The notes beneath the pieces are model-generated. The model did not search any database. It saw nothing but the letters and a program-made list of their open reading frames with translations, and was not told the DNA's origin. The position numbers were made by a program, and so were the translations under genes. DNA of 62,390 bases, counting the filler. It is 10 parts of 10 records of this genome, joined end to end, with 100 filler letters (N's around TTAATTAATTAA, not from the genome) between each part and the next. Parts side by side here need not be neighbours in the genome. Positions count along the whole stretch, not along the records: positions 32,201 to 36,624 come from SRR9670534_1153; positions 36,725 to 41,756 come from SRR9670534_1164; 8 more parts are not named here. One strand, written 5' to 3'. Positions within the stretch are counted from its first letter, which is position 1; the number at the start of each line of letters is the position of its first letter. Of the stretch, positions 1-62,390 are shown piece after piece.

Positions 1-1584
1 ATAATAATAATAATAATAATAATACATATTGCTAAATTATTCTCAATAAGATACTTCCTCAGGATATTATATTAATAAGTACTAGAAGTAGTGAAAGGAA
101 TTGCCTTTTGATTACGTTTGAAAGTAAATTTACTTAATTTATTATATTATATATAATAATAATAAGCATTATAAGCATTATTATTATATATAAGTCTTAA
201 TTCGGTATTTTTATTTTCGTCATACATTGTTATTATTAATAAATCTATTAAAAATTTTAATAATATTGTTAATAATAACGAAAATAAAATGTTAATTTAA
301 AATAATGCTTTTTATATATTATTAGAAAACAAATAGATAAACTAAATATAAAAATTACTTTTGTAGGTATACCTTTGTAGGCGCTATTTTGTACTATAGA
401 CTTGCACAACCAGTGTCAGCTTGTATGTATATTCTTATAAGATTATAATAATTTTAATAATAAATAAAAACTACCATATTATTAATAATAAGGGTATAGA
501 AGTATTTACCTAATTTTCTACGACAATTTTGTGTGACTGTGACCTATGGTTATTATTAAGGCTATTGGTATACCATTATTATAATATAATATTATAATAT
601 TAATAACTCAATATTATAATATTATATATAATATTAATAACTCAAGAATATTAAATTTATTAATTTCTCAGTTATTAATAATAAAGAAGTGACTGTGTTG
701 ACTTTAGCATAACAATCAATGATGAGAAACAATGGAAAATTTTTATCAAAAGTTCAAAGTTCACTAAATAGGCATGCTTATCGTTTTATTACATGTAACT
801 GCAGTTATTGCTCATTCGACATGATTGTCTTATGGCAACCATCACTTCCTCATAATTACATATTATACATTAATAATAACATAGTAGGCCTATGTTGTCA
901 TGAGACATATGTGATATTTTCCAACGTGATCATCGTATCTTCTATCAGACAACTTTACTCAGACTTACTAAGCCCAATTAGTAGCTACATAATATCCTTG
1001 TATTAATATTATTAAAAATTAAGTCAAGGTAAGATTTTTTACCGTCTTTTACCCTTTATTATGGGCCTACTTTAAATTCGTAATTTTAGGATTATTCTGT
1101 TTTCTGATCATATGCACATATGTCAATAATATTTGCTAAATATATATTATTTATACGATATTAAAATTATATTATATTTAAATTATAATATTATTAATTA
1201 CGTACAGTACCTATTTGGTGTCATTAGTGTTTCTTTTGTCTTTTAAAACATGTCCTAAAAGCCTTGGGGTGAAATTCCTTTGAGACAATTAAAGCAATTC
1301 CTTCCCAGCTCAAGTTACTGTTGCTAAAAATAGCCATTGCCCCTCATGGGAACTTAACTTATGCTTTTTTACCACAAAGGTAACCTTTCCATATGCTTAT
1401 TAAGAACGCACCTTATTTACATACACCCTTTTCACCCCTTTATGCAATCAATTCATTTAGATACTATAGTATAGTTTGTTGTATAACCTTCATATGTAAT
1501 AATGTATGATAATCCTGCATTGGTTATACACTAATCCAAGACTCGGATTCCTAGTGCCTATGAAATCTGAGTGTGAATTCAGAC

Positions 1585-3335: not shown

Positions 3336-4076
3336 ATTTCTTATTAACAATAATAATTATTATTTATATTAAGTTTTTGTATTTTAGTACTATTATCTAT
3401 TACAATTTTGTTCAAAATTTTCAATAAATGCTTCAATAATACATATAAAATATTTTATTTGGTTTATAGTAAGTAACTTAGTTTTGTTAATTTATTATAA
3501 AGGCTTTTTATTATGCTGTGTTATTTCATTTCTTTTTAGAGTTTTAATTGCAATACTTTACTTTTTACTTTTTTACTTTTGGGGCTATTTTTAATTTTTC
3601 ATATAAATTCTGTAATTCTGAAATTCTATATGGTTATAAAATACATATAAGTTATGCTCCATGCAAAAGTTTGCAGGGTTGCATCATATGTACATACTGT
3701 ACTTATTAGGTAAGTAGGTAAATGAAGGTAGACTAATATCTTAACAACATGTTGCCAACAACGTACAATGTATGTATGTATGTACATATTTAATAATATG
3801 TATGTAATTATTAATTAATAGGTACTTATTAGGTATGCATGCAACAACGTACTGGTATGTAGGTATTTATTGGATATCATAGGGTACATACATTGTATAC
3901 CTACTATGTATGTATTACCTATCCAACCATATACTGTTATGTACTATACTGGTATACTGGTATGTACCCTAACAACAATGGGTATGATATGTACATAAAG
4001 TAACGACAAAGCTTTTTCATATTGTGTCTGCTTACAATAGCCTGTTATTGTCTGCTGATACCTAAAGTCCGTCGAG

Positions 4077-7766: not shown

Positions 7767-9695
7767 TCAGTCCAATGTTCTGTTGTGTTCCTTAGGCATA
7801 TGTTTCCTCAACTCTCCTCGGGTAAGAAATCCCCTATGACAGCCTGAGACTGAACACTTAAAAGGAAACTCCTTTGTATGCATTACCATGTGCCTATCCA
7901 ACATGATATGGTCGGCAGTGTTCTTGCCACAGATTTTGCACTTAAACTTTTCATCAAAGACATCATGCACACCACGAAAATGTCCCCATAAAGTCGACCT
8001 ACTGGAATAAACTTTATCGCAAAAATAGCAATGCTTCGTGTCCGTAACCCAATCGGGAAGGTTATATCTATCCGTACATCCTTTGGGCAACTTGACATTC
8101 TCTGAGGGCCTTGCTGGACTTGCCTTTATGGGACTTTTACTTTTGGGTGAAGTTGAAATCTTTGGCTTTTTCTTCATTGGTACAGCTGGTTTATGGTCTC
8201 TTTTCTCTACTTTCATTTTACGCTCTTTTCCAGAGCTTTCACTTTCTGATGAAATTCGCATTTTTGATGTTCTTCTCACTGCCTCAAGTGGTTCCTCGTC
8301 TTCATCGTCTAGTTTCATTTTCCTCTTCACAGCCTTAGTAGCAGACGACGGCAAAGGCACCACTTCACAGCCATTAGATTTACCCTTCTTCGTAATCACT
8401 GATTCTTTGATAATGTTTTTCGTATTACGAACAGAATGAGCTACTTTTCTATGTTTCTTTAAAGCCTTACGATGGGGAAAAGTTAACTTGCAAATTTGAC
8501 ATGATACAGAGCTGTCACTGTGATCTTCTGCATTATCATTACCGACTGTTTCAGGGTGTATTATAGCGTTTAATGCATCGTTCAGTAAATCGTTCTTCGA
8601 ACGACTCACTATCATCTCAACATCGTTCAAAACTTGTTGAACGAAATTACCTACCTGTGACTCAACAGAATCCGAATGTTTAAAATCACTGTGTTCATAT
8701 GAAAATGTAATGGTTACTGGTTCATCAGAACTTCCTCCATTCTCAGCAACCGGCTGTATGGTTTCATTTGCAGAAAAAGATGGCGGTTCTTTAATCGCCA
8801 TTTGCCATTGCAGATTGACTTCCATTTTATTTGGTTCATTGTTCGTTACAGTTGACCCATGCTTTAACTTCGAAAGACTATTTACATATCCATTTAATTT
8901 TGATACCATACCATACACCCTAAAATAACAGCTAATCCAGTATTACACATTTGCAATGGTATAGAGATGATCTAAACATGATATGCTTATTAATAATTAG
9001 CAATATTAATACCAACATACCAATCAATGACAAACTCGTAAATTGATATTTCTTCATCTAATTGTAAATTTAAACTTAAAATACAAAGTTGTTTTTTCGC
9101 TTCATCGTCTAACTGCCGATAAAATGAAGATTCAAATTTCACAGAATCTATTCCTAAAAACATTATATCCTTTAGTAAAAAATGTTATAACAAGTCTATT
9201 TTTATTAGAAATTTCCTAACCATAAGTCATAGATAACAAAACAAATTTGCTTTATTAATTTGCAATTATCTATCGTTTAAGTATATCTATTGTAAACAAA
9301 AGTGGCTGGTATAAAATAGTGCCAGCGCACGCTACAGGATAATGTAGCGCTACTTTGTCCGGAGACGTTCCATCTGTTTATTAAATAGTTATTACATCTT
9401 ATTACATAAGGTAATTTGCATACTTACAAGCTGTGCCTACAAGCTGTATATTTGTAAAAATATGTATTATAAGCTGTGCACAACTTCCACATACTGTGCC
9501 GGTAAGTATTGTATATTGCCGGTAAGTATTGTATATCATTCTACGTTTGGGGTCTAACATATATAGATTAAAATTACTTGATCTAGAAGTAGAACTGATA
9601 TTCTTCAGCAAAACAGAGGGAACTGCTTTTGTAGAACCACCTTTCTTGCTACCACAAAATTTTTCTATCAATCTGTTCTTCAGCGTCTCTTTCAT
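7767..9695 (-). CDS. C2H2 zinc-finger protein (one isolated and three C-terminal fingers), at least 3 exons; start uncertain
   Basis: Fingers CQIC..H..H, CYFC..H..H, CKIC..H..HT and CSVSGC..H are visible, with an HTKEFPFKC linker. Upstream exons at about 9578-9695 and 9021-9153 splice in frame. Confidence 0.8.
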
Positions 9696-10386
9696 GACAT
9701 CTTCAAATTCCAACGCAAGATTGCTTGTCCTAAGTACAGTACCTGTAATTAGGTAGTTCACCAGTTATGGTTAGGCACAGGTATGTTATATGTAGTACAT
9801 ATTATGTACACAAGCTTTTTATTTGTCTATCATTATAATATACCAGAATCATAGAAAAACGTGATACATCGTACATCGTACAATATCATAGTACAAGTAG
9901 TAGGTATCCATGGAGCTAGTATAGATTTCTTCTAGCTCCATGCTATGTATGAATACTAATGTGAAATATGTATGTACTCTTATTTCTACAGTGTAATAAT
10001 ACAATAACAGTACATATATGTATTACATACAATGTGTAATAACAATGTATTCTATGAAAATATATCCTAAATCGTCTTTCCTTTTATTATCTATGTTATT
10101 TATATACATAATTCTATAAACGTAAGTTTGTACTACATATGGTAATATATACTACATACGTACAAGGATATTACACACAGTGTGTAATATCNNNNNNNNN
10201 NNNNNNNNNNNNNNNNNNNNNNNNNNNNNNNNNNNTTAATTAATTAANNNNNNNNNNNNNNNNNNNNNNNNNNNNNNNNNNNNNNNNNNNNAATGCATAA
10301 AAACAGGTTAGCTGTATAACAAAACTATATGAATATATGATAAAAGCAAAACAATGTAGCCAGGCAGCCTCATTTGTTTTCTTTGT

Positions 10387-18230: not shown

Positions 18231-18768
18231 TTAGCTATGTATTTAATGTAAAGTAATTTGCTTATAGAAAGTATCATTATTGAATTTATTACTACTGATA
18301 TCAGTATTGTATTTTAATAAAATATATTCAATAGAAATACATACAGACTGTATGATACAGTAAGCCTTACTGAGTAAGGTCCTATTATACTGAACTGAAA
18401 AATCATAGGCTCAAAATTTGGTGTAAGTGGAAAGTTGTGATAAGTAGGAAAATTTATAGTGTGCGTGCGTATAGTTAGGTATACCTACAGGTACTTTAGT
18501 TAGGTAAATTAAAATAGGCATTACAATACAAACACCACAAGTTTTGCGTAGATCAGCCTCTTCTGAAAAGGAATGTTAGGTACATAGGTAATATGTACCT
18601 ATTAGCCTAATAGTGTTAGGTATGTTATGGCCCATAACATAACATTCCTTTTCTACGTTATTAATTGTGTTTTATTAGAAATAGGTAAATTATTACCTAC
18701 TCAGCATCAAAAGTTTTGATTCCAAACCAATTTAGAATTCAAATCTTATTTTATCATAAATCAGGGTG

Positions 18769-19962
18769 ATGTCTGACGAAGAAGGATCCGGTGAAGGCGA
18801 AGATGCATTTGATCAGGAGCAAGATGATTTTTTTCACGATGAAGATATTGACGAAAACTTGCAAGATGATTTAATGGTGTAAATTTTATAAGCTTACCTG
18901 TTAAATCCTATATAATTATTAATTACAGACTGTAATTTACAGTACATTGATGTTACATACCTACATTAAAATTTATGTCGAAGTATGTCGTCCTATAATT
19001 TATTTATACATGTGCATTCTACTGTACATGTGAAGGCCTACTTGCCAAACAATTGCTTAATTTAGTTAAACTTCGAGATAACGTACAAGGTAAGTACAGT
19101 AGAACGAAATTGACTACACGTTGTAGCTCTTTCCAGTCTTATGTACCTGACAATCGACAATATATGTATGTGGTGTTTAATAATTATTAGCTTAAGCTTT
19201 GCTTAGGTATATATACGTAAATTACGTAACGTAATTCTCTATGCTTGATAATGAGCGTTACCTATGTGCTCGAAATCGATCGCATGTTTTGTACAGTGAT
19301 ATGTAATAAAATTCGTTCTACTGTAATTACCGGACGTATTGCGAACTTCACATTGCGAAGGTCTACCTACTACGTAAACCATAAATTTCTTTATTTTGTT
19401 ATAAGTAATTTAGTAAATTAAATTTACATACGTATGTACATATAAATTACATATGAATAATGTGCGACATTGGTGTACAAATTGAGTATGTCGTAGCCTG
19501 CGTACTCGTAGGTACGTATGTACATTATTTATATACTACATAATACACAATATCCTACTGTAGAATACAATTTGTACACTGGTACCGCGTACGAAGCAAT
19601 GCTTCGGAAGCATAGACTATCTATAGTACGGTATGGCGTATTATAATATAGGTAAGTATGTATTCTAGAATGTCTACATATAGGTACATATGTGGAAAAT
19701 TACCACTGGTAATGTGTGTACCTAGGTAGTACTAAGGCTTCCTATAACAACCGTTGTTATAGGAAGCCTTGGTAGTACTTACTAAGCAATGCTTATCTGA
19801 TGTACAACTGTAGGGTGAAGATGGTGGAGGAGATGGAGCTCAAGTAATGACACAACAAGATGCAGCTGCACAACCTGGTACTAGGAAGGAACGAATAACG
19901 ACCCCATACATGACGAAATATGAAAGGGCGAGAATACTGGGAACGCGAGCATTACAGATATC
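18769..19962 (+). CDS. POLR2F: RNA polymerase I/II/III subunit RPB6, first two exons (partial)
   Basis: Acidic exon 18769-18876 and exon 19814-19962 with [24 protein letters not shown]. Confidence 0.95.
19732..19772. repeat. 41-bp hairpin element flanked by TA
   Basis: AAGGCTTCCTATAACAAC-c-GTTGTTATAGGAAGCCTT has perfect 18-bp arms and resembles 61494-61540. Confidence 0.8.
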
Positions 19963-20197
19963 GTATGATTTGATCACCACGTCCGTATTGAGTATATGTA
20001 GTACATATTATGTACCTACTCGTATACTATATTGAGTACTACCGTTACCAATGGTAACTTACTATTACCGCGACGATCCATAGTTACTGTGAGATACNNN
20101 NNNNNNNNNNNNNNNNNNNNNNNNNNNNNNNNNNNNNNNNNTTAATTAATTAANNNNNNNNNNNNNNNNNNNNNNNNNNNNNNNNNNNNNNNNNNNN

Positions 20198-27145: not shown

Positions 27146-27148
27146 ATT

Positions 27149-28207: not shown

Positions 28208-28240
28208 GAAAAAAGGCCTAAGAAAGGCTCGTTTTAATTA
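28201..28240. terminator. Possible weak terminator between convergent recA and ppnN-like genes
   Basis: Short AGCCT...AGGCT stem with a gcctaagaaa direct repeat in a 30-nt gap. Confidence 0.25.
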
Positions 28241-29362
28241 AATTTCTTCAAGGGTGTAAAAATTCTTATAAGAAACCTTTAATCTACTGTTTTTATCAAG
28301 AGTATCCATTAATTCTCGAATCAGGACAAGGGGATATTTTTCTCCACGCAAAATAACCCTTTCTAATTTTTCACCACTTTGGGATTCTTGAATCAAATAA
28401 TTATTAATAATTCCTTTAGAAAAGGCCTTCATGAGAAGAAAGAAATCTCGTTTTTTCATCCCCCTATGCAAATAATGCTTTTTCAATGCGCCTTGCCAAG
28501 AACGCAAAGGAGGAGGAAATTGAATACTTTCATCCCAAGCAATTTTCGTTTTAAGAAAAAGATGCTTTTTAAAATAATTTATCACTTCATCAAGAAAAGC
28601 CTTTTGGCTCTTGCCATTATAAGAGATAAAATGAAAAAGGGAATCCTTATCTTTTGGAGAAAAACCCAATACTTCTCGCATTAAAGGCCATAAATGAGAG
28701 AAAAATGGATTGCTGGCAAATTCAAAAAGAATAAGGGGATAAGAGCTATGATTATTGCCCAATGTCATCCATAAGAAAGTAAAAAATTCTTCCAAAGTGC
28801 CAATGCCCCCAGGGCCAATTATGCCTCCTTGAGCCATGCGAATAAAAGCTTCCATTCGATATTCCATGCTATCAAAGACAAAGAAATTTTTGACAAAAGG
28901 ATTAGTTTTTTCAAAGAGCAAAACGCGTTTTTCACTAAGGCCAATGCCTTCATACGAGCCTAATTTATTATTTTTCTTGTGATAAAAATAAGCGGCTTTA
29001 AAAGGCGCTTCCATGGCCCCTCCGCCTGCTCCTGTAATAAGAGTATAAGATTCTTCGGCAAGTCTATGGCCTAAATTATAATAAAGATCGTATTCGCCAG
29101 ATGAAAGCCGATGACCTCCTTGAATAAAAATGCGATAATAAGGAAGTTCTTTACTTAAGGCATAAAGAATTAAATCTTTAGGATTCTTCTTTAAATAACG
29201 CAAACTCATGCTAAAAGTTGTCATTCTTCTTTTTTCAAAAAAAGATAAATCTGCCATCACATCTTCTTCTAAGTTGAGATTTTTGTAAAACTCTGGAGAA
29301 AAGCTCAGAGCATCTGTCATTTTATCCAAAAATACTCCTGTTTTATAATCTTTAGCATCCAC
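28238..29362 (-). CDS. ppnN: LOG-family nucleotide 5'-monophosphate nucleosidase, PpnN/YgdH-like
   Basis: GGH..S..EY, TGAGGGAMEAP, RMEAFIR and GPGGIGTLEE (PGGxGTxEE motif). GTG start with a GGAGG Shine-Dalgarno. Confidence 0.75.
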   Translation of the reverse strand: MDAKDYKTGVFLDKMTDALSFSPEFYKNLNLEEDVMADLSFFEKRRMTTFSMSLRYLKKNPKDLILYALSKELPYYRIFIQGGHRLSSGEYDLYYNLGHRLAEESYTLITGAGGGAMEAPFKAAYFYHKKNNKLGSYEGIGLSEKRVLLFEKTNPFVKNFFVFDSMEYRMEAFIRMAQGGIIGPGGIGTLEEFFTFLWMTLGNNHSSYPLILFEFASNPFFSHLWPLMREVLGFSPKDKDSLFHFISYNGKSQKAFLDEVINYFKKHLFLKTKIAWDESIQFPPPLRSWQGALKKHYLHRGMKKRDFFLLMKAFSKGIINNYLIQESQSGEKLERVILRGEKYPLVLIRELMDTLDKNSRLKVSYKNFYTLEEI

Positions 29363-29375
29363 CTAATCACCTCCA

Positions 29376-29777
29376 TTAAGAGCGACGCACTTTCCACACC
29401 CAAATTGCACTTAAAAGATAATTCCAAAGAGCCCCTGCACTAATACCAAAAAATGTCGCAAGATACCAAGGAAAAGCCAAATAAGGCAGATAGAACAAAA
29501 GTGTAGAGACAAGAAAATTAATGATTGCTCCACCTAAAGATACGGCAAAAAATTGTATCATACGGGTAAAAAAAAGATTTGGGGATTTTTCTTTTGGATC
29601 TGTGGGAAAAGTGAGTATGGAATTTCCAATGTAATTAAAAAACATAGCGATAAGTGTCGCAATCCCATGGGCAATGTAATATTCAAGCAAAAGAATAGAG
29701 AAAAAGAAAGCTAAAAAAGCATAATGAATGAAAAGGCCAGAAGCACCAACAAAAAAGAAAGAAAAAAAACTTCTTAT
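29376..29777 (-). CDS. GtrA family membrane protein
   Basis: FFSFFFVGASG...NYIGNSILTF...IQFFAVSLGG...WNYLLSAIWVW. The frame stays open upstream of the TTG at 29690, so the true start is uncertain. Confidence 0.85.
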   Translation of the reverse strand: MRSFFSFFFVGASGLFIHYAFLAFFFSILLLEYYIAHGIATLIAMFFNYIGNSILTFPTDPKEKSPNLFFTRMIQFFAVSLGGAIINFLVSTLLFYLPYLAFPWYLATFFGISAGALWNYLLSAIWVWKVRRS

Positions 29778-31228
29778 ATTGAGGTTTTTGTAAGTTTTAT
29801 TGATGCAAGGCCTCCTTCTGAAGTTTCTTTATATGCGTCTTTAATATCCCTTCCAGTTTCTTTAAGAATACGAATAATATCATCAAGAGCAAAAAGTTCA
29901 TCTACTCCATCAATATCAAGGGAAAGATAACTCGATTTAATCGCCTTTAACGAAGCTAAAGCATTCCGTTCAATGCAAGGAACCTGAACAAGGCCGCCAA
30001 CAGGGTCACAAGTCATTCCAAGATGCTGCTTTATGGCAATTCCTGCAGATTCTAGTATTGCTTTCAAATTTCCACCCAAAACGTAAGTTAAGCCTGCAGC
30101 TGCCATTGCAGCAGCAGCACCCATTTCTGCCTGACATCCCCCTTCTGCTCCAGAAATACTGCCATTTCTTTTAATAAGAGTGCCAATTAATCCTGCAACA
30201 TAGAAAAATTCATAGACTACTTTTTTCCTCTTCGCCTCTGTTTTAATTTCTCTTCCCTCTTCACTAAGGTATAAAAAATACATCAGTACTGCAGGAACAA
30301 CTCCAGCTGCGCCATTAGTAGGACTCGTTACCATGCGAGCAAAGGAAGCATTTTCTTCTCCTACTGATATGGCAAAAGCAGATATCCATTGATTTATTCT
30401 TCGAAAAGAGAGTTTTTCCTTAAAAAGAATTTTCCTTAAATCCTCAAAATTTTCCAGCTTTACAGAACGACCACATATCTTTAATAGATAATTTCGAGCC
30501 TTTCGAGGAACATTATAATCTCCTGGTAAAAAGCCGCTTTTCAAAAATCCTCCAAGGATACATGACTGTATTACCTTCCGCACTTTATTCCATTTTTCTT
30601 CTTGCTCCTTCATGCTCCTGTCAACTTTCTCATTGGCTTTTATGAGATCAACAAGATTTAAAGAAGGATGCTTTTCAAGATGCATTTCCAAATCTTTTGC
30701 AAAATAAATAGGATAAGGATATTCTTTGCTCCCCTCTTCCTCCTTCGTTTGTTCCAATTGTCCCTCTTCTTTAATAAATCCTCCGCCAATAGAATAATAT
30801 TCTTTTCGTAAAATAACCTCACCCTTAAAGTCAAAAGCGATAATTAATAATGTATTAGGATGAGGAAGATTGAACCTTTCAAAATCAAAGTGCACATTTT
30901 CTTCAAGGGAATATTCAATTTCCTTGCCATAAATTGTAATACGCTTATTTTTTTTAATATCCGCAACAGCTTCAGAAAATTCTTCTGTCGTCATATCTGC
31001 TGGAGAAACTCCACTTAATCCAACGCTCACACCCAAATTCGTTCCATGACCTATTCCCGTCTTAGCCAACGAGCCATAGAGATAAATATCAATTTTCCTA
31101 AGATCTTTTAAGGATTTCTTATCTAAAATTTCCTTCGTAAAAGCATTAGCAGCACGCCATACTCCCTGAGTGTGGGAGCTTGAGGGCCCTATTCCCACTT
31201 TAAACATATCAAAAACACTTATATACAT
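29774..31228 (-). CDS. sdaA: L-serine ammonia-lyase, Fe-S dependent, single-chain type
   Basis: [38 protein letters not shown] and [16 protein letters not shown]. Confidence 0.97.
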
Positions 31229-31281
31229 AATATGAATTTTAACTTATTCTTTAAAAACTTGCCCTAAAATTTTAAATAAAT

Positions 31282-32100
31282 TTATAATTTTAGCACTTTG
31301 CGATGTTCTTTTAAAATTTCTTCTTGAAGCTCTTTAATGGAAAAATTTTCATAAATAATTTCTTTTTTTAAAGGAAGAGGAATAAGTTTTTCTATCTTAT
31401 CAAAAAGGATAATATTTTTATTTGCTTCTATTTCTTTTATCCTAGAAACAGGGGTAAAATGAGGAGATGTTCGAAGGATTTCCGGATTTTTATGAAGAAG
31501 TTCCACCATGGCAACAAGTGCCTTAGCAAAACGATTAATCTCTTTAAGGCTATAAGATTCTGTTATTTCAATCATAATTCCCTCTGGGATGGGAAAGGCT
31601 ACCGTAGGCGTATGATAACCAAAATCCAAAAATAATTTACCAAAGCGAACTATCGCCTTTTTCCTATCAAGACCAATACTTTTTTCAATCTTCTCAAACA
31701 AATCATCCTTTAATGTAATGATGAATTCATGCATGCGCAAAACAGAATAATCTGCTGGAAGAAAACGATAATGCTCTTTTAATAAAGAAGCAAGATAAAT
31801 TGACGATAAAACCGCTGTATAACTCATTTTTCTCAGACCATCTGAACCTAAGTGAAGAAGATAAGCTAAAGCTCGAATTTTATGGGCGAAATTCCCATTA
31901 TCTCGATGAACTGAGCCAATGGATTTGGGCATTATTTTCTTATAATATCTATTATTCTCATCTTTTTTCACCACAAAAGCAGGAATATAAGGACGCAATT
32001 CCTTTGTCACAGCGACTATCGCATCTCCAGGCCCTCCTCCTCCATGGGAAATCGACCACGTCTTATGTAAATTATTATGCACAGCGTCAACCCCGAGCTT
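31282..32100 (-). CDS. gcvPB: Glycine dehydrogenase (P protein or subunit 2), C-terminal fragment
   Basis: PLP-lysine motif NLHKTWSISHGGGGPG, plus MHEF, DFGYHTPT, MIEITES and PHFTPV. Confidence 0.9.
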   Translation of the reverse strand, partial: KLGVDAVHNNLHKTWSISHGGGGPGDAIVAVTKELRPYIPAFVVKKDENNRYYKKIMPKSIGSVHRDNGNFAHKIRALAYLLHLGSDGLRKMSYTAVLSSIYLASLLKEHYRFLPADYSVLRMHEFIITLKDDLFEKIEKSIGLDRKKAIVRFGKLFLDFGYHTPTVAFPIPEGIMIEITESYSLKEINRFAKALVAMVELLHKNPEILRTSPHFTPVSRIKEIEANKNIILFDKIEKLIPLPLKKEIIYENFSIKELQEEILKEHRKVLKL

Positions 32101-32276
32101 NNNNNNNNNNNNNNNNNNNNNNNNNNNNNNNNNNNNNNNNNNNNTTAATTAATTAANNNNNNNNNNNNNNNNNNNNNNNNNNNNNNNNNNNNNNNNNNNN
32201 AAATTTCGACATGTTGTTGTTTAATAAATTTTAAATTAAAAGATTAAAATTTAATTTAAATTATTTAAAATTTTTA

Positions 32277-36466: not shown

Positions 36467-37654
36467 GATCTTTCGATGTTAAGTACCACACTCCCTTTGC
36501 TTTATACGGTATAAATTATACCTAGGTATGTATCATAGATAATGTATGTAAATTAAATAATTTAATAGGTATGTACTATGTATTACAGTATTATGTATGT
36601 ACTATGTAGACTACATAATGTAGTNNNNNNNNNNNNNNNNNNNNNNNNNNNNNNNNNNNNNNNNNNNNTTAATTAATTAANNNNNNNNNNNNNNNNNNNN
36701 NNNNNNNNNNNNNNNNNNNNNNNNAAGTCAAAATGCTAAAATATTAAGTAATTTGTGTGTACACAATGCATTAAATTGCCTATATATATTTTATAAATTA
36801 TATTTTTGTACTTAAGGTAAAATATTTGATGTTACAATGTATATAAGTTTTCATTTATTATCATATATTAACTTAAGCTTCAGAGTTTTTAGTAACAATA
36901 TTAACTGTTCTTAATTTTAGTAAATTGTTATTAACTTTCAACACTGTTAATTGATTATAATAGTTTATCTACTTATTATGCATGTTTAATGATGCTAAGT
37001 TTTATAGACTTTTATGCTAATTTTTTTGCTGCTACAAAATACTAATTTATAAACATTTGCAAAAAAATTGACAAAACTTTAAAAAAAGTTAAATAAAATT
37101 AATAAAGTTAAAAATTAATATAGTTAAAAAAGTAACCAAAGTTAAGAAATTAATAATTGAAAATTTAATATGAATTTAATTAAAATTAAAAATGTGATAC
37201 TAGTATTTTATAATACATGCTGTACAGTACTAAATATTTATAATGCAAATTACATAACACATGCTAAAATGTAAATTATAGTATATACTATAGTACTATA
37301 ATATAATGATATTGCATAGGTAATTAGATTCTTATTTTATGTTTTAAAGAGTTTACATGCTCACCAAAAGGTACCAATTCAGAGAATTTTATGTTGTATT
37401 CTAGTATTGTAGATACGGTATCTAATAATATTAGACTAATATACCTAATTACATTGTATGTAATAGCAAGTTGCTACTAGCAACTACGTATGATTATTAC
37501 ACACCGTATTATTAATACCTAATAAAAATTAGACGATGTATGTGTGCATGACATGCACTGTATGTACGTACATAGGTATGTATTTAGGTACCGTACTGTA
37601 CAGTGAGTAGATGTAATTGTTTTTAATAATTTTTGCAGTAATTGTATGACATAG

Positions 37655-38278
37655 ATGAAATCCGAAGAATCTGAAGGTAGTAAAACTGCAGCTGATATAA
37701 ACATTTTTGTTCATCATATGTCTAAAAGACACCCACTTTCTATGAACAAAGATCAAAGCATTCAGCATTTATCGCAGGAGATAGAACAGCTCATCAAAAT
37801 ACCAGTTTGTCGCCAAAAACTTATTTGGAATGGCCGTCAAATCAATAAGAACAATGCACAATCCCTTGCTCAAGTTGGTTTAAACAATAATTCTAAGGTA
37901 ATGGTCATTGGTACAAGACATTCTCCTGAAGATGAGCAGATGTTAGCTATTTTGGAAACCCATAAAAACAATCTGGCTGATTTAGATAAATTGGTGCAAG
38001 CGACTAAGGATCAGCTTGAAGGAATAGAGAGTGGTCATTTGCCAAAAATTCACAAGGAAACTGCTTTAAATGAGATCCAGAAGAAGTTGCTTATGTATGA
38101 AGAAAAAGCCATGAAAATACTCGAAAATATTGATACCTCGTGCCAATGTTCTACGTTGGGAAATGACCCTAAGGAAAAGAAAAAAAATATAGTCACGCAA
38201 ACACAAAACTTACAGACCCAAATAGATAAATTAATGCAGCTATCAAACTCGTTTCGAAATCATGATCATTTGAAATAA
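37655..38278 (+). CDS. BAG1: BAG family molecular chaperone regulator 1 (ubiquitin-like plus BAG domain), intronless
   Basis: UBL region (RQKLIWNGR..KVMVIG) followed by BAG helices (LEGIESGHLPK..EKAMKILENID..KKKNIV). Confidence 0.85.
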   Translation: MKSEESEGSKTAADINIFVHHMSKRHPLSMNKDQSIQHLSQEIEQLIKIPVCRQKLIWNGRQINKNNAQSLAQVGLNNNSKVMVIGTRHSPEDEQMLAILETHKNNLADLDKLVQATKDQLEGIESGHLPKIHKETALNEIQKKLLMYEEKAMKILENIDTSCQCSTLGNDPKEKKKNIVTQTQNLQTQIDKLMQLSNSFRNHDHLK

Positions 38279-38323
38279 GTACAACCTGATCTGTACCGTA
38301 CAGATCAAGTTGTACTTATTTCA
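38271..38323. repeat. 53-bp hairpin overlapping the BAG1 stop codon
   Basis: 26-bp arms with one mismatch, centred on TACCGTA. Confidence 0.9.
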
Positions 38324-39340
38324 GTTGATCATACTGAGTAGTACTGTACAGTATCTGTAGTATTACTGTACTGTAATTTACAAACGTTATTGTACATTCT
38401 TACGTCATAGATGGATAATACATAACTGTGTTCGTAATAGCGACCATTGATGTTCCTATGTCATAACAGTTATTATGATAACTTACGTAGTACCTAAGAT
38501 TATTAATATTGATTGTATAATATACGATGGTACATTAAATGTACTACATTTATAACTAGGTGTATATCTTTATTGCATATCACTGATATCAGGTACCTAG
38601 TCTAATAGGCGTATTTTTAAAAATATTAGATACCGTAGACAATTTGTTTATGATTATTAGTAGTGATTTATTAGTTAATTAATAATAATTGCCCCTACAT
38701 AGGAAATGTGCTACCAATCATTTGGCTAATATACGGTATGCGTACAATACCTAGTAGCGAAAACGCATGCGTGGTAATCAAAAATTGTTTAGGAGTCATT
38801 GGAACGTACCGTACATACTGCGCATACGGTATGCGTAATATGTACCTACTTATATGCACCACTTACAGAACCATGGAGAAACAACGCCTTTGTTGTACGT
38901 ATAATACGTAACGTATTACGTGATAAACTAACCATATATGAAATTTATTGTTATTACAAACGTAATGATAGGCATATGATATGCCACATTACATATGTAA
39001 TGTGAAGTTGCTTGTTGCAAATTACGCATTTAGGTATACAGTGTAGGTACTATACACTGTAATACAGTTACTGTATTCAATATACTATATACGTTACATA
39101 CTTGAATGTTGTTCCTTTGTTTACTATTATTCTGAGTTTATACTTACACTTTGGTTTTTGTTATTGATAACACCTAATTCGTAAGCTTGATAGAATAATA
39201 CGGAGCCTGTAGGTTGAAACCATTATATGTTTACGATATTGACAAATATACCTATAAACATTTTTATAATGATATACTTACCTATATTGTGTTGTAATAG
39301 GTTTTTTGGTGTATACATTAAATTCATAATACCTGCAATC

Positions 39341-41756: not shown

Positions 41757-41856
41757 NNNNNNNNNNNNNNNNNNNNNNNNNNNNNNNNNNNNNNNNNNNN
41801 TTAATTAATTAANNNNNNNNNNNNNNNNNNNNNNNNNNNNNNNNNNNNNNNNNNNN

Positions 41857-45885: not shown

Positions 45886-48800
45886 ATGTTTCTTGTACAG
45901 TTAATGTATCATTTGGTACTGCTATGTTGGTTTTGGTTTGGAATTGTCAATGGATTTTATTTAAGCAATTACAAGGATTTAACTGGAAAATGCCACCAAT
46001 CTTACTATAAAGCCCCAGAATGCATGTACTATTCACATGGGGGCTATTATTGTCATTGTGGTCCTGGATTTTCATGGAATACCAAAGTATGCTTAGCTGC
46101 CAGTGTTAATTCAAGACTTGAGTTTGAGCCCGTGTTTCAGCAGTCAAAAACCCTTTCCTATGCTGCACTCTTGGATAAAGCCTTCCCATCTCTGACTCAA
46201 CTAACGATTTCATTTTGGGTTAATTTGCCCTCCAGAATTTATGCTGATGCATCGAAAACCTCCTGGAAACCAACCCTGCTGAGTTTGGCTCCCAGACATG
46301 GTCACGATGTTGATGCTCACGATACAAACAAACCTCTCTATTATTTGGTAGTCATTGTTTGGCCACAGATAAAATTTCAAGTTTGTAACGAAACCATCAC
46401 ACTTCGAACTCATAAGCTATCCTTCGATGCATGGCATTTTTTGGTACTTTCATGGAAATCTTTTAATGGACAAGTTTCTATATTCTTAGATGGAGAACTT
46501 GTGTTTCGAAATGCCCATTTAGCCAGTGCATGTACCATTAAACCAACAGAAAATCACACCTTAGTTCTTGGGCAAATGCCTTACCAAAATGAGTCAAAGA
46601 AAGATGGCAAAGACCAAATTTTGTACATCTACACTAAAAGCCATTCCTTTGTAGGCAATATTTCACATGTTAATTTTTGGAATAAATTTTATGATGATGA
46701 TGGTATAGGCTGGGTAAATCAAACCATGAGAGATTATACATTCATCATGCCAGGTTGTGGAAATATTGTTGAGTGGAGTGACTTTAGGTTATTTAACTAT
46801 GATTTCGTCAATAACATTATTGGTAAACTTTAATTTTTCTTTTACTTTAGGTTAGGAATTCGAGGAAATGCAAAGCTGAGATGGCCTTCGGATATTCCAT
46901 ATTATTCAAAAGTAACTTATTTTAATCAAAAACAGCTGTTTGAGGACTGCAATAAATACTGTGGTTTTAAATATGGATCTATTTGTAATGCAGAAATCAG
47001 GGAAAGTATTTCATGGCCAAGAACCAAGGTTAATGAGTTGGCCATGGCGCCCTGTCCCGCCATTGCAAATGGTAATCCAAGTTCTCACACAACTGCCCCT
47101 TCCAACCAATCCCAGCAACTAACGATGTTGAAGGCCACAAGAATGTGTGTCATTAGTCCAAATGGTGTTGTGGGTCTTTGGCAAGAACCAAACATTACTT
47201 CTTGTGTAAATGAAAGTTTCAAAACAATTTTCGAAACAGCAAAGTTGTATTCGAGAGAAAACTTTGGACTATCTGATTTGATGGATTTATTGAATGACAT
47301 CAAAAACATATCTTTACATTTAACAAATCCTTCAGATTTGGGTATTCTTATAGATACTTTGAAGTTAGTGCTAGAACTTTCTAAAGATGCGTATTCTAAG
47401 GAAGACTTGAAATTTCCCATCAAGAGAAGTCAAGAACAAGCCTACCATTATTTACGTGTTAAAAGTTCAGATGGTAGTGTACCTGCAGATAGCATTTTTG
47501 CTATGGGTAACTTAATTTTAAACATCACAGATGGTTTGCTAAGTGAAAGAGCTTGGGATAACACCCTTCCCAAGGGAGGGGAGGCAGCAGAATTGATACT
47601 TTGCTTGAAAGACTATCTGGGTTTGGTGGCTCAAAGTTTAACTAATGCTGTCACGATCGATTTTGTTGACCTGTCAGAGGCTTTCCTGGCTTTTCATGGT
47701 GAAAAAATTGACGCAAAAGTTAAACTCTACAACAAAAAGATAAATTTTAATAGTGGCATTAATTTTCCTGATATTTTGGATGAATATAAGTATAAAATGC
47801 TACGGTCTTTAGGAACTGTAATGTTGCCCAATGATGGCTCAATTGCCAACAGTTCAGCATGGCCAGATATTTTTTCATTGATTATGGTTCGACTTAACAT
47901 ATCTGAATTGTTACCAAACACTAACCTTACTGGTAGCATCGTAGAGCCTGATTATAATGTTGAAGACAAAGTTAATTCCTTCGTATTTATGATGAGTGCT
48001 TGGGGAAATGGAACTTGGATTAAAGAATCAGCGAAAGGTGCACCTCTTGTTTCCCAAAGTTCTGGATCGTTACCAGGCCATTTGACACCATCATCCATCA
48101 CTTCCAACAATGAGGGTTCAGGATTGAAGTTTTTCTTTCCCTTTCGAAACAAGTTCAACATTTCGGATGAAAAATGTGTTAAACTTTGGAATGGTACACT
48201 GATAGACAGTGTTGGATGGCAGTACAATAACACTAACTGTTCTATCACAAATGTCAATGCAGATTATATCATTTGTCAGTGTGCAAATGAGACTCTCAAA
48301 TACGAATGGGGTGGTATTTACACTGCTACTTCTGACATGTACAACCCTAACTGGGCCAAACCCAATCCAAGACTGGCTTTGGTAGGCCCAATAAGTTTTA
48401 TTGGGTGTAGTGCCAGTACCCTCTCAGCATTGGTAACCTTTGTCATGTTAACTTACTTGGGCACTACTTCCTCAACCACTACCCTCCATAAACATTTCAG
48501 TATTGCAATCATCCTGGGCCAACTTTGCTATATGATTGGCATTGACAGGGTCGAAAATGCTCTTACATGTAAAGTATTTGCCATTGCTCTGCATTATTTC
48601 TTCCTTTGCATATTTGCATGGATAATGAATGAAGCATTTAATTTGTACATCTTGGTAACCTACTCAGCCCATGCTTATGGAGAACAAATTGAAGGAGGAA
48701 GTCAGTGGAAATTTTGGCTTTTAGGCTGGTTGGTCCCTGGAGTATTGGTTGCAGCTTTTGTTGGTACTAATACTAAGGATTACTGCTCACCTGATATGTG

Positions 48801-60557: not shown

Positions 60558-62064
60558 TCATTTGGTGGCGCCAACGTACTTTTTCTTCAGTCGGACATAA
60601 ACAGGATGAGATTCCGCTAAATGGCACTTCATTTGTTGATAGGCATACAATTGCTCCATAAATCCAGGATTTGGTTTAATGAATCGTTTCTTCATTATGA
60701 AATCATGGGCTTCTTTAACGTTCATTTTACAATATTTCATTAAATACGCAATTATAATAGTTGCGCTGCGTGATTGACCCAAGTAACTAAAAAATGATTA
60801 CCTACATATTTCAAGTAAGTTACATACGTAGTGGGTACATTATGTATCATACATGTGTATTATTATTATTATTAACGGCGCACCCAAGCACCCTGTCCGC
60901 ACCCACCAACATTTTGAAGATCTTTTAGTTACTGTTACAAAATTGAGGTTTTAGAGATTTCATTGAAGATTGACTTCATATGAAGTCTGAAGTACTTAGT
61001 TTTTTCAATTAAACTACTTTTAGGTGCTTCTATACAAGTTTTACGATTAAATTTGACCAAAATTTTTGCTCCCATTTTTTTCTAATTTCACTCTAAATTT
61101 TGCATCCCCTTGAAAATGTTTGAGTCAAAAACGATCCTAGTACTGTGTACCATAGATCATTGATCATAATTTATAAATAAATAAATCATGGAGAAAAAAT
61201 GTACATATTATGGATTCACAACTAATAGTTATGCAGACTGCATAATGCAGACTTGTGCATCCGCCAAGGTGCAGGATTCCTGCAGCAGGAAGGTTTAAAA
61301 CGTACGTACATCAAGGATATTAAACCAACATTTAATATCCTTGACGTACATATATGTATACCTAACAGGTATTACCTGTTACTGTAACATTAATAATAAC
61401 AACGCAAACTTGTGCATGCTGCAAGGTGGTGAAGCGTTTTTTATACATTTTATTATGAATACGTTTCTTATACATTTCATGAATAGGAACATTCCAAGGA
61501 CTCCTATACTACCTAAACAAGGTGATATAGGAGTCCTTGGTAGTACCAAGTTGGTACATTCAGAATGTTACATATTCTATGGGATGATCGGACGTAGGCA
61601 TGCTTTTATTATTATGTGTACTAATGTACTAGGTATGTAATAATAATTAGGCATAGCCTACGCTACATCGGTTTACACCGTACTTCCGTAGTATGTACTA
61701 CTACGGTGACCGTACTGATCTTACAAGTTTATTATGTAAACTACTTGTTAGTTTATAAGTATACTTACCAATGAACCAAAACGGGGTGTTTTGCAGATAA
61801 AGCTTGATGGATCCAATCAACACATTCATCAAAGCTACACAGAAGGTTAAAGTTTGGAATGTCATTAGCGTATACAAATTTGACAAAAAAGCGATGTTCA
61901 TCAATCGTCTTTACTTTGCTAGTATTGACAGTTAAAACATGAGAAATACCGCAAGTTTTAGCCAAGCAGTCAACATTTCCAGCAGCAGCCATATTTCCCA
62001 CATAGAGATCATCAATTATTCTACTGAAAGAACTTTCAGTGACTTGATTTCCTTTCGAAATCAT
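60558..62064 (-). CDS. Atypical dual-specificity phosphatase, 2 exons
   Basis: Exons 62064-61768 and 60786-60558 join to give the VLVHCYLGQSRSAT active-site loop, AYLM and PNPGFMEQL. Confidence 0.92.
61311..61344. repeat. 34-bp hairpin element
   Basis: TCAAGGATATTAAA..TTTAATATCCTTGA shares CAAGGATATTA with 10163-10191. Confidence 0.8.
61494..61540. repeat. 47-bp hairpin element
   Basis: CCAAGGACTCCTATA..TATAGGAGTCCTTGG has 15-bp arms. Confidence 0.8.
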
Positions 62065-62364
62065 CTAAAATAAATAGGTAACTCAAATAGCCGAGTTATT
62101 ATTATGTACTATGTATTATGTATTATTAGTAATAATTTATTACATAATATGTACTACGTAGTTGAATTATGTATTAATTTATTAATTTAACACTGTACAG
62201 CAGGATTTCTATAAAAAGCAAAACCATGGACCACTTAATACTTACGTACTTTATTATGTACATATTACATACCTAACTACATAGTACATATTATTATTAA
62301 TTAACAGTTAATAATGACAGATTGGCAAAATAAAAAATCACTACTACATATAAAAGTACATACA

Positions 62365-62390
62365 TACCGTGTTTATTCGATTAAACGCCG
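62365..62390 (+). mobile_element. pogo/Tc2-like transposon terminus at contig end
   Basis: TA-CCGTGTTTATTCGATTAAACGCCG matches the reverse complement of 20225-20252. Confidence 0.65.

What the first reader, a model, noticed from the sequence alone, without database searches (positions are those of the whole stretch)
37400..39120. Housekeeping-gene 5' regions built from chains of transposon-footprint-like words
Seen: 37561-37604 parses as TA-tg-TA-cg-TA-ca-TA-gg-TA-tg-TA...TA-gg-TA-ccg-TA-ctg-TA-cag, and 38341-38376 packs several TACTGTA/TACAGTA words. The same vocabulary (TACATA, TATGTA, TACCTA, TAGGTA, TACGTA, TACAGTA, TACTGTA, TACCGTA, TACGGTA) forms islands at about 3680-4000 (PRDX), 9730-10190 (ZF gene), 18470-20060 (RPB6), 20250-20420, 23040-23140, 36500-36624 (DHPS) and 61600-62370 (DUSP). 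It is scarce upstream of TR, the adhesion GPCR and the tandem orphans, and in plain AT-rich DNA such as 23300-24880. Established: Tc1/mariner elements insert at TA, and excision leaves TA plus 2-3 terminal nt plus TA (Tc1: TACATA/TATGTA; Sleeping Beauty: TACAGTA/TACTGTA). CCG-ended elements would give TACCTA/TAGGTA/TACCGTA/TACGGTA. Inference: repeated insertion and excision in germline-open chromatin wrote these regions, each footprint creating a new TA target. The result would be a self-amplifying promoter signature, possibly co-opted like a CpG island.
Basis: partly seen in the sequence, partly recalled or inferred. Interest (0 to 1): 0.82.

Follow-up and report, generated by a model that had tools for sequence, protein, structure and literature searches.

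The report
Transposon excision scars in promoter islands
The DNA just upstream of several everyday genes in this AT-rich animal genome is peppered with tiny, uniform 22-letter scars of the kind left when a cut-and-paste jumping gene leaves its site, so these regions record a long history of transposon traffic.

Summary
The nine TA-N2/3-TA words cluster in eight islands, each above all 300 dinucleotide shuffles (z 4.6 to 8.8). Plain AT-rich DNA shows no excess. Only spacers TG/CA, GG/CC, CG and CNG are enriched.

The eukaryotic pieces hold 30 exact 22-mers of the form T[1..7] + revcomp(T) + T[2..8], where T is an 8-mer. Shuffles give 0.0. The structure occurs only for unit length 8 and only in the odd, one-base-pivot form.

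This is what a hAT-type excision predicts: an 8-bp target duplication, hairpins on the flanks, and palindromes centred on the complement of the base next to the element (PMC5873905). The two opened hairpins would be joined through the inverted duplication.

- The scars avoid long ORFs (43 of 46 outside).
- They are absent from the bacterial and LINE pieces.
- They show a decay series.
- They are 4.5 times denser in the islands.

Recognisable scars hold only 36 of the 167 island words. A Tc1/mariner origin for the words is therefore plausible but unproven. Slippage, a repeat family and a single motif are rejected.

No hAT element, genome or reads were available.

The parts
37400..37645 (.). Island A: GTA/TAC-word-rich DNA directly upstream of the BAG1-like gene (ATG at 37655)
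   Evidence: 13 words vs 3.5 expected, 0 of 300 shuffles reach it. Palindromes with arms of 7 or more: 8 vs 0.3. 37% of bases lie in recognisable scars.
37410..37424 (.). 7+1+7 palindrome (single; half-scar or decayed scar)
37421..37442 (.). Exact 22-bp scar T[1..7]+revcomp(T)+T[2..8]
   Evidence: all 14 complementarity constraints met
37463..37484 (.). 22-bp scar with 1 of 14 constraints broken. It contains the X-box-like palindrome at 37469-37485.
37544..37565 (.). 22-bp scar with 1 of 14 constraints broken
37561..37600 (.).
37414..37508 (.). TA-flanked 91-bp inverted-repeat element with termini CGG...CCG (12 of 14 TIR match). A third copy of the end lies at 38622-38637.
   Evidence: The long pair 37414/38637 (one of the 5 TA-flanked 14-nt pairs with <=1 mismatch at 100-3000 bp, 0.12 expected) is.
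37655..38278 (+). BAG1-like gene (ubiquitin-like domain). Only 1 vocabulary word falls inside it.
   Evidence: Pfam ubiquitin 8.9e-12. Atlas hits are BAG-domain clusters. Word count.
38279..39120 (.). Island B: lies between the BAG1-like stop codon and the next + strand gene
   Evidence: 26 words vs 9.4 (z 6.2). Palindromes 15 vs 0.8.
38287..38307 (.). Loop-1 palindrome with 10-nt arms (long P-tract type)
38342..38375 (.).
   Evidence: TRF period 5/11 rows
38530..38551 (.). Exact 22-bp scar
38896..38917 (.). Exact 22-bp scar
39055..39076 (.). 22-bp scar with 1 broken constraint
18900..20097 (.). Largest island (RPB6 5' region and introns). It holds 5 exact scars (18922, 19214, 19406, 19592, 19994) and an 18-nt-arm loop-1 palindrome (19734-19770).
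18340..18379 (.). Two exact scars overlapping by 4 bases, as expected for two successive events at overlapping 8-bp targets
19095..19325 (.). TA-flanked 227-bp MITE-like element with termini CAG...CTG (13 of 14 TIR match)
36501..36624 (.). DHPS 5' island with exact scars at 36501 and 36603. The second ends exactly at the piece end.
61500..62390 (.). Island around DUSP exon 1 (minus strand, ATG near 62066). Exact scars at 61536 and 62122. Candidate 8-bp-duplication element at 62097-62296.
3600..4000 (.). PRDX 5' island: richest in words (25 vs 5.8) but with no arm-7 palindrome
9500..10191 (.). Island 5' of the zinc-finger gene. The exact scar at 9788 is identical to the one at 19994.

Best explanation
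**Claim.** The islands are real stretches of GTA/TAC-rich, TpA-rich, CpG-retaining DNA at the 5' ends of broadly used genes. These genes include PRDX, RPB6, DHPS, a BAG1-like gene and DUSP. The islands have been hot spots for insertion and later excision of cut-and-paste transposons.

**The clearest scars** are 22-bp units made of an 8-bp target T written three times: forward without its last base, fully inverted, then forward without its first base.

**Proposed mechanism.**
1. A hAT-type element inserts and makes an 8-bp target duplication.
2. On excision the transposase nicks one base into the flank and seals each flank into a hairpin.
3. Host enzymes open both hairpins several bases from the tip.
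4. The two unfolded tails then carry complementary inverted copies of the duplication. They anneal over up to 8 bases and are filled in.
5. Any pair of opening positions far enough from the tips gives the same product. That would explain the uniformity.

**Shown here:** the structure, its restriction to unit length 8, its one-base pivots, its avoidance of coding DNA, its decay series and its concentration in the islands.

**Inferred:** the enzyme family, the repair route, and that open promoter chromatin attracts the elements.

**The words.** The TA-N2/3-TA vocabulary is a second, weaker layer. It is most likely Tc1/mariner-type footprints, or preferred target words, in the same hot spots. That is not shown.
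For: **The structure is far above chance.**
- 30 exact 22-mers against 0.0 in 30 local dinucleotide shuffles.
- Broken constraints out of 14, observed vs shuffle: 0 broken 30 vs 0.0; 1 broken 16 vs 0.15; 2 broken 22 vs 1.9.

**It is a discrete class.**
- The odd inverted triplication by unit length u, observed vs shuffle: u=8 30 vs 0.00; u=7 1 vs 0.07; u=6 3 vs 0.53; u=9 to 13 none. The even form gives 0 to 2 at every u.
- Loop-1, arm-7 palindromes: 90 vs 7.8. Other loop lengths at arm 7 are 9 to 24 vs 7 to 8.4, and the loop-3 value is partly inherited from arm-8 loop-1 palindromes.
- Among 119 such palindromes, a centre-to-centre offset of 7 occurs 30 times. Every other offset occurs 3 times or fewer.
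- 16 of 57 single palindromes carry 6 of 7 bases of the predicted third arm. Controls give 1 to 3.
- Inverted 6-mers are enriched only at odd distances 7, 9 and 11.

**It agrees with published hAT behaviour.**
- Hermes makes 8-bp duplications and prefers nTnnnnAn targets (PMC10368747, passages).
- hAT elements form hairpins on flanking DNA (PMC5499845 and PMC4763223, passages).
[quoted passage not shown] Arms reach 20 nt in yeast, and microhomology is used in 85-100% of joints (PMC5873905, passages).

**The inferred targets fit.** In 58 symmetrised sites, T at position 2 is 53%, A at 7 is 53%, purine at 1 is 64% and pyrimidine at 8 is 64%.

**The distribution is biological.**
- 43 of 46 scars lie outside ORFs of 90 aa or more, although those ORFs cover 24,980 of 54,377 eukaryotic bases.
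- There are 0 in the 7.1-kb bacterial piece and 0 in the 5.7-kb LINE piece.
- Density is 4.2 per kb in islands against 0.93 per kb in other non-ORF DNA, binomial p 3e-6.

**Link to the vocabulary.** 19 of 30 inferred targets contain GTA or TAC, against 30% of neighbouring 8-mers.
Against: **No element or enzyme was found.**
- No hAT element or transposase is in the window. 30 ORFs of 100 aa or more and 47 further ORFs of 75 aa or more give no transposase family.
- Only 3 low-complexity candidates combine an 8-bp duplication with inverted ends (0.43 expected).

**The footprint spectrum is unusual.** Experimental hAT footprints are heterogeneous: 28 types among 128 events in C. albicans. Here one product dominates. 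Shorter joints are only mildly in excess. For middle lengths 3 to 7 the count is 23 against 6.8.

**Some support is weak or recalled.**
- The target preference is weak (about 53%).
- The one-base offset of the first nick is taken from the Ac/Ds footprint description. The Hermes biochemistry is recalled, not read here.

**Scars do not explain the words.**
- Only 36 of 167 island words start inside scars.
- The rest remain enriched (z 3.4 to 8.7).
- The richest island (3600-4000) has no arm-7 palindrome.

**Data limits.** Everything rests on 54 kb of one assembly, with no second haplotype, outgroup or reads.
Confidence: 0.6

Rival explanations
1. First reader's model. The islands are chains of Tc1/mariner footprints: TA, plus the 2-3 terminal bases of the element, plus TA. 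Each footprint creates new TA targets. In this reading the 22-bp palindromic units are a separate side issue.
For: - Only spacers beginning with C or ending with G are enriched (TG/CA, GG/CC, CG, CNG). The other classes are flat or depleted.
- TATGTA/TACATA and TAGGTA/TACCTA exceed a trinucleotide null about 2.4-fold.
- TA-TA spacing of 4 occurs for 26.5% of island TAs against 12.5% in controls.
- TA-flanked elements sit in the islands with termini CAG...CTG (19095-19325) and CGG...CCG (37414-37508, plus a further end at 38622-38637). Together with 6212-8560 and the two overlapping 62145/62148 pairs, the 19095 and 37414/38637 pairs make 5 TA-flanked pairs against 0.12 expected.
- The canonical footprints TAC(A/T)GTA of Sleeping Beauty and TACATA/TATGTA of Tc1 are recalled knowledge, not read here.
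Against: - TACGTA is fully explained by GTA/TAC richness (14 vs 13.4). TAC-N-GTA is only about 2-fold up.
- Hexamers are close to their maximal-order Markov expectation (1.0 to 1.2).
- No element with a CC...GG terminus was seen, although GG/CC is the second commonest class.
- No Tc1/mariner transposase is in the window.
- Chains are no longer than independent placement at island density would give (253, 37, 6, 2 and 1 chains of 1 to 5 units).
- The pair 37414/38637 encloses a whole gene.
- The model cannot explain the 8-bp inverted triplications.
Confidence: 0.3
2. The islands are a promoter-type composition kept by selection or by lack of germline methylation. The palindromes come from an unrelated replication error, either short template switching or miniature inverted triplication.
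For: - Islands sit directly upstream of start codons.
- CpG o/e is 1.0 in islands against 0.73 in control non-coding DNA and 0.55 in long ORFs.
- 131 of 167 words lie outside recognisable scars.
- Small inverted triplications from replication errors are described (PMC13334657, abstract). Short template switches appear in a search listing (PMC7954356).
Against: - Template switching should give a continuum of sizes. Here only unit length 8 occurs (30, against 0 to 3 at u = 6, 7 and 9-13) and only with one-base pivots. The published triplications average 148/160/148 bp with 30-bp spacers.
- The words have no extended context, so they are not one binding motif.
- The inferred 8-mers show the hAT-like T2/A7 bias.
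Confidence: 0.12
3. The vocabulary is decayed tetranucleotide microsatellite, (TGTA)n/(TACA)n and relatives, made by slippage.
For: - An (ATGT)4.2 array lies at 3768-3784, and there are short period-5, -7 and -11 arrays in the islands.
- GTA-GTA and TA-TA spacing peak at 4.
Against: - Adjacent units in chains are identical in 11 of 59 cases, equal to the 18.4% expected for independent draws.
- TRF finds only short, low-scoring arrays.
- Islands share no alignable sequence.
Confidence: 0.05
4. The palindromes are an assembly or sequencing artefact.
For: - Three piece ends coincide with palindromes (10167-10191, 36603-36624, 55629-55643).
- The record is a draft made of short contigs.
Against: - There are none in the bacterial piece or the LINE piece, and 43 of 46 avoid long ORFs on the same contigs.
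- There is a mutational decay series.
- There is a target-base bias.
Confidence: 0.03

Closest known systems
hAT-superfamily excision footprints (Ac/Ds, hobo, Hermes): P-nucleotide palindromes from hairpinned flanks
   Same: - The unit is 8 bp.
- The palindromes are centred on a single base that is the complement of the base next to the element.
- The joint is made through microhomology.
- The target bias is T at position 2 and A at position 7.
- Long loop-1 palindromes (arms 8 to 18) are also present.

   Different: - Here one full-length product (target - inverted target - target, 22 bp) dominates, instead of a heterogeneous spectrum.
- The scars are fixed in a natural genome at about 1.5 per kb of non-ORF DNA.
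- No element or transposase is seen in the 54 kb examined.
Tc1/mariner and Sleeping Beauty canonical footprints (TA + 2-3 terminal bases + TA)
   Same: - The enriched words have exactly this form.
- Two TA-flanked elements in the islands have termini (CAG, CGG) that would give two of the three word classes.

   Different: - Part of the enrichment follows from GTA/TAC richness.
- The CC/GG class has no candidate element.
- This model does not produce 8-bp inverted triplications.
V(D)J coding-joint P nucleotides (RAG hairpins opened off-centre)
   Same: The chemistry is the same: a hairpin on the flank, opened away from the tip, gives a palindromic addition (mentioned in PMC5499845 and PMC5873905).
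   Different: - RAG/Transib make 5-bp duplications.
- P tracts in lymphocytes are 1-4 nt.
- These events are somatic, not inherited.
Small inverted triplications and short template-switch mutations
   Same: The forward - inverted - forward arrangement of one local sequence.
   Different: - Published events average 148/160/148 bp with spacers (PMC13334657, abstract), and sizes vary.
- Here the unit is always 8 bp, with no spacer.
CpG islands and unmethylated promoter domains
   Same: They are promoter-proximal, and CpG is not depleted (o/e 1.0 against 0.55 in long ORFs).
   Different: - G+C is only 32%.
- The defining words are TA-based.
- No methylation data exist for this organism here.

Membership tests
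hAT-type excision footprint | Built on an 8-bp target-site duplication | tested here: met
   The inverted triplication occurs 30 times for unit length 8, 0 to 3 times for lengths 6, 7 and 9-13, and 16 vs 4.8 for length 5.
hAT-type excision footprint | [quoted passage not shown] | tested here: met
   Loop-1 arm-7 palindromes are 90 vs 7.8, and even-loop classes are near expectation. In every exact scar the pivot is the complement of the last or first base of the 8-mer. The rule comes from PMC5873905.
hAT-type excision footprint | Target preference nTnnnnAn (Ac-like hAT) | tested here: inconclusive
   T2 is 53% and A7 is 53% in 58 symmetrised sites. Neither was tested against a background model. 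The consensus comes from PMC10368747. The direction is right but the bias is weak.
hAT-type excision footprint | Resident hAT elements or transposase in the same genome | tested here: not met
   None in this window. 77 ORFs have no transposase Pfam family. Three weak element candidates vs 0.43 expected. The genome is not held, so the wider test could not be run.
hAT-type excision footprint | Empty, filled and scarred alleles at one site | not testable with these tools
   No runs were listed. There was no metagenome match and no genome.
Tc1/mariner footprint | TA on both sides of 2-3 bases that equal the termini of resident elements | tested here: inconclusive
   Spacers are restricted to C-initial or G-final classes. 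Candidate TA-flanked elements have CAG and CGG termini. There is none for CC/GG.
Tc1/mariner footprint | Enrichment beyond local composition | tested here: inconclusive
   Met against dinucleotide shuffles. Met against order-2 Markov for TG/CA and GG/CC. Not met for CG, and weak for CNG.
Tetranucleotide microsatellite | Runs of the same unit | tested here: not met
   Identical neighbours are 11 of 59, as expected by chance. TRF rows are short.
Dispersed repeat or MITE family making up the islands | Islands alignable to one another | tested here: not met
   Self-BLAST gives only low-complexity AT-rich matches. The best island-to-island hit is 72% over 92 bases.
Single transcription-factor motif | Conserved context around the core word | tested here: not met
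   Flanking positions are close to background for TATGTA (n 178), TAGGTA (96), TACGTA (48) and TAC-N-GTA (96).

The most novel reading that the evidence does not exclude
In this animal a substantial share of promoter-proximal DNA has been written by transposon excision scars.
- Every hAT-type visit triples its 8-bp target, and repair goes almost only through microhomology. Preferred target words (GTA/TAC-rich) would therefore multiply locally and make the site an ever better landing pad.
- Tc1/mariner footprints would add the TA-N2/3-TA layer.
- The result would be a self-reinforcing, CpG-retaining, hairpin-rich promoter signature that can be read without any outgroup.

A bolder variant is that the uniform scars are made by a domesticated hAT-like enzyme that removes elements in a programmed way.
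Probability: 0.2. Interest if true: 0.85.

Novelty: new variant of a known kind. Interest (0 to 1): 0.64.

Why it matters
- **Excision history without an outgroup.** Excision footprints are normally seen one at a time in experiments, or by comparing two genomes. Here a single sequence rule (8-mer forward, inverted, forward, with one-base pivots) picks them out of one genome with essentially no false positives. That would let one count past excisions, map where elements landed, and read the target preference of an element that is no longer there.
- **A clue to the repair pathway.** The uniform product suggests that this lineage repairs hairpinned breaks mainly by microhomology annealing. This can be tested against its repair-gene set.
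- **A possible origin for promoter composition.** The scars concentrate at the 5' ends of housekeeping-type genes. They make up about 15% of island bases (3 to 37% per island). Transposon traffic may therefore have shaped promoter sequence composition.

Tried and rejected
- **Ciliate genetic code.** Adjacent ORFs separated by single TAA or TAG codons suggested it. It was rejected. The cases are a LINE pseudogene, a short in-frame intron in the adhesion GPCR, and back-to-back bacterial genes.
- **Islands as copies of one repeat.** Self-BLAST shows no such homology.
- **Microsatellite slippage.** Not supported.
- **One binding motif.** Not supported.
- **Structured RNAs or tRNAs in the window.** None found.
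- **Maximal-order Markov test**. I first read it as showing that the TA...TA frame carries no information. Lower-order nulls show that TATGTA/TACATA and TAGGTA/TACCTA remain enriched, so that reading was withdrawn.
- **Collapsing exact scars to look for older nested ones.** Only the one overlapping pair at 18340-18379 appeared.
- **Intact elements with 8-bp duplications.** 2 hits with a 12-nt end criterion, one of them enclosing PRDX exons. 3 vs 0.43 with a looser criterion. None is convincing.
- **Whole genome.** Not held.
- **Sequencing runs.** None was listed, and no RNA holder was listed.
- **Exact 32-mer of the BAG1-like gene in metagenome contigs.** No match.
- **BAG1-like protein homologues.** None at E of 1e-5 or better within the length range searched.
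- **Earlier notes of this scan.** Nothing on this genome or on look-alike stretches. The word searches returned unrelated bacterial findings.
- **Literature.** Searches for a genome-wide build-up of such scars, or for short palindromes in animal non-coding DNA, found none. This covers only the held open-access library. PMC321453 (yeast hairpin repair) is not held. Supplements were not consulted.
Full report
**What the window is**

The 62,390 bases are ten separate pieces joined by N44-TTAATTAATTAA-N44 linkers. Gene order across linkers therefore carries no information.

- Piece 24988-32100 is bacterial. It carries arginyl-tRNA synthetase, RecA, a LOG-like protein, serine dehydratase and a glycine dehydrogenase C-terminus. 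Its RecA is at most 66% identical to the best 80 loci listed from the prokaryote collection.
- The other nine pieces (54,377 bases, about 32% G+C) are from an animal.
  - The genes include PRDX, a C2H2 zinc-finger gene, a kinase, RPB6, deoxyhypusine synthase, a BAG1-like gene, an ASXH protein, an adhesion GPCR, ARMC9 and a dual-specificity phosphatase.
  - A LINE-like pseudogene lies at 10387-15922.
  - The first DHPS exon is closest to ascidian proteins (61-69%), followed by echinoderms.
  - The GPCR is only 32-36% identical to spiralian proteins.
  - I read this as a fast-evolving invertebrate, probably a tunicate, and did not go further.
- No genome, reads or earlier notes were available.

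**Checking the observation**

Words cluster strongly.

- In each one, 0 of 300 dinucleotide-preserving shuffles reach the observed word count (z 4.6 to 8.8).
- Seven other non-coding stretches, including the plain AT-rich ones, give z -0.3 to 1.8.

The vocabulary is sharp.

| TA-N2-TA spacer | Observed | Shuffle mean |
|---|---|---|
| TG | 50 | 13.0 |
| CA | 36 | 11.2 |
| GG | 23 | 3.8 |
| CC | 19 | 3.8 |
| CG | 14 | 6.3 |

All other spacers are flat or depleted. CGG, CTG, CCG and CAG are among the enriched N3 spacers.

The islands sit directly 5' of start codons:
- PRDX (ATG about 4078);
- the zinc-finger gene;
- DHPS;
- the BAG1-like gene (ATG 37655);
- the next gene downstream of the BAG1-like gene;
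- DUSP (ATG near 62066, minus strand);
- RPB6, where the island also covers intron sequence.

**What the words are not**

- The islands do not align with one another, so they are not copies of one repeat.
- TRF finds only short arrays. In chains of words, neighbouring units are identical in 11 of 59 cases, exactly the 18% expected for independent draws. Slippage is therefore not the source.
- No conserved context surrounds the words, so they are not one binding motif.

Much of the signal is GTA/TAC richness: GTA/TAC is 2.6 times control and GTAC 6.2 times. Against a trinucleotide null:
- TATGTA/TACATA and TAGGTA/TACCTA remain about 2.4-fold enriched.
- TACGTA does not (14 vs 13.4).
- TAC-N-GTA is only about 2-fold up.

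**The unexpected signal**

The islands, and other non-coding DNA of the animal pieces, are full of short perfect palindromes of one discrete kind: 7-base arms around a single unpaired base.
- There are 90 of these against 7.8 expected. Other loop lengths at arm 7 give 9 to 24 against 7 to 8.4, and the loop-3 value is partly inherited from arm-8 loop-1 palindromes. The bacterial piece has none.
- Among 119 such palindromes, the centres are 7 bases apart in 30 pairs. Every other spacing occurs at most 3 times.

Each pair is a 22-mer. It is an 8-mer T written forward without its last base, then fully reverse-complemented, then forward without its first base.
- There are 30 exact cases against 0.0 in 30 shuffles.
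- With 1 or 2 of the 14 complementarity constraints broken there are 16 and 22 cases, against 0.15 and 1.9.
- Of 57 single palindromes, 16 carry 6 of 7 bases of the predicted third arm.
- The series 30, 16, 22 is roughly what steady production followed by neutral point mutation would give.

The structure exists only for unit length 8.

| Unit length | Odd form observed | Shuffle mean |
|---|---|---|
| 5 | 16 | 4.8 |
| 6 | 3 | 0.53 |
| 7 | 1 | 0.07 |
| 8 | 30 | 0.00 |
| 9 to 13 | 0 | 0.00 |

The even form, without pivots, is absent or nearly so at every length.

**Why this points to hAT-type excision**

A fixed 8-bp unit calls for an enzyme with a fixed 8-bp stagger. Published passages read here support each element:
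- hAT elements make 8-bp target duplications and prefer nTnnnnAn (PMC10368747).
- They excise through hairpins on the flanking DNA (PMC5499845, PMC4763223).
[quoted passage not shown] Arms reach 20 nt in yeast, and microhomology is used in most joints (PMC5873905).

If each flank keeps 7 bases of the duplication on one strand and 8 on the other, unfolding the two hairpins gives two tails. Their ends are complementary inverted copies of the duplication. Annealing and fill-in then give exactly the observed 22-mer, whatever the precise opening points, provided they are far enough from the tips. This derivation is my inference. The Hermes nick position is recalled.

Independent details agree:
- The inferred 8-mers have T at position 2 and A at position 7 in 53% of symmetrised sites, a purine at 1 and a pyrimidine at 8 in 64%.
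- Longer loop-1 palindromes (arms 8 to 18) are also in excess.
- Two scars at 18340-18379 overlap by four bases, as two successive events at overlapping targets would.
- The same 22-mer occurs at 9788 and 19994.

**Biology, not artefact**

- 43 of 46 scars (0 or 1 defect) lie outside ORFs of 90 aa or more, which cover 46% of the animal sequence.
- None is in the LINE piece or the bacterial piece.
- Density is 4.2 per kb in the islands and 0.93 per kb in other non-ORF DNA (p 3e-6).

Only partly.
- Recognisable scars cover 3 to 37% of each island and contain 36 of the 167 island words. The other 131 remain enriched (z 3.4 to 8.7).
- The island richest in words (3600-4000) has no arm-7 palindrome.
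- 19 of 30 inferred targets contain GTA or TAC, against 30% of neighbouring 8-mers. The elements therefore either prefer such words or multiply them.

The Tc1/mariner reading of the words keeps some support.
- The spacer set is what termini CAG, CCG or CGG would give.
- TA-flanked inverted-repeat pairs are in excess (5 vs 0.12).
- One is a 227-bp element with CAG...CTG ends inside the RPB6 island (19095-19325).
- Three copies of a CGG-type end lie in the finding's own region (37414, 37508, 38637).
- Against it, there is no candidate for the CC/GG class, no transposase in the window, and no way here to test indel polymorphism.

**Rivals**

- Replication template switching makes forward-inverted-forward structures, but of variable and much larger size (PMC13334657, abstract). 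The single unit length argues against it.
- A selected or unmethylated promoter composition may well coexist. CpG o/e is 1.0 in islands, 0.73 in control non-coding DNA and 0.55 in long ORFs. It does not explain the scars.

**Verdict**

The finding is real. Its core idea of transposon scars concentrated at housekeeping-type 5' regions is supported in a different and more specific form than proposed.

Excision footprints of hAT elements are known. Their fixation in a natural genome as a uniform 22-bp product, at more than one per kilobase of non-coding DNA and enriched at promoters, did not turn up in five literature searches of the held library. That library lacks most subscription journals.

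Confidence that the 22-mers are hairpin-type excision scars on an 8-bp duplication is about 0.7. Confidence that scars of any kind wrote most of the island vocabulary is about 0.3.

Noticed in passing
window 3186-3285, 10192-10291, 15944-16043, 20098-20197, 24888-24987, 32101-32200, 36625-36724, 41757-41856, 55645-55744: Nine identical linkers (44 N, TTAATTAATTAA, 44 N) carry stops in all six frames. The window is therefore a chain of ten contigs, not one locus.
   Followed up: yes
window 24988-32100: This piece is bacterial. It has tightly packed genes for ArgRS, RecA, a LOG-like protein, L-serine dehydratase and a GcvP C-terminus. RecA is only 57-66% identical to the best 80 loci listed from the prokaryote genome collection, with Rickettsiales and other alphaproteobacteria among the best. 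It is probably a symbiont or co-assembled bacterium of the animal.
   Followed up: partly
window 10387-15922 (-): A LINE-like non-LTR retrotransposon with endonuclease, reverse transcriptase and RNase H. It is broken by four in-frame TAG codons and a frame change. It contains no 22-bp scar.
   Followed up: partly
window 10167-10191, 36603-36624, 55629-55643: Three piece ends coincide with a loop-1 palindrome or a 22-bp scar. Contigs may break at these structures, or at an unassembled element inserted there.
   Followed up: no
window 9788-9809 and 19994-20015: The same exact 22-mer occurs in two unrelated islands with different flanks. This means two independent events at the same 8-bp target, and that target contains the commonest word (TATGTA) at positions 2-7.
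   Followed up: partly
whole eukaryotic part: The odd inverted triplication with unit length 5 is mildly in excess (16 vs 4.8). It could be noise from palindrome-rich DNA, or a trace of an element family with 5-bp duplications.
   Followed up: no
window 37469-37485 and 20044-20058: Two palindromes look like RFX X-boxes (GTTGCY...RGCAAC type, recalled). They belong to the 7+1+7 class and sit in near-complete 22-bp scars. Scars can mimic dimeric factor sites.
   Followed up: no
window 37630-37654: A TTTTTGCAG acceptor-like site lies 17 bases upstream of the BAG1-like ATG. If the animal is a tunicate, this could be a trans-splice acceptor, and the island would then be an outron rather than a plain promoter.
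   Followed up: no
window 20336-20412: A 25-bp unit is repeated 2.9 times (92% match), built from the same vocabulary.
   Followed up: no
window 46831-46836: The adhesion GPCR ORF is interrupted by one in-frame TAA inside a hydrophobic, odd-looking stretch. This is probably a short in-frame intron.
   Followed up: no
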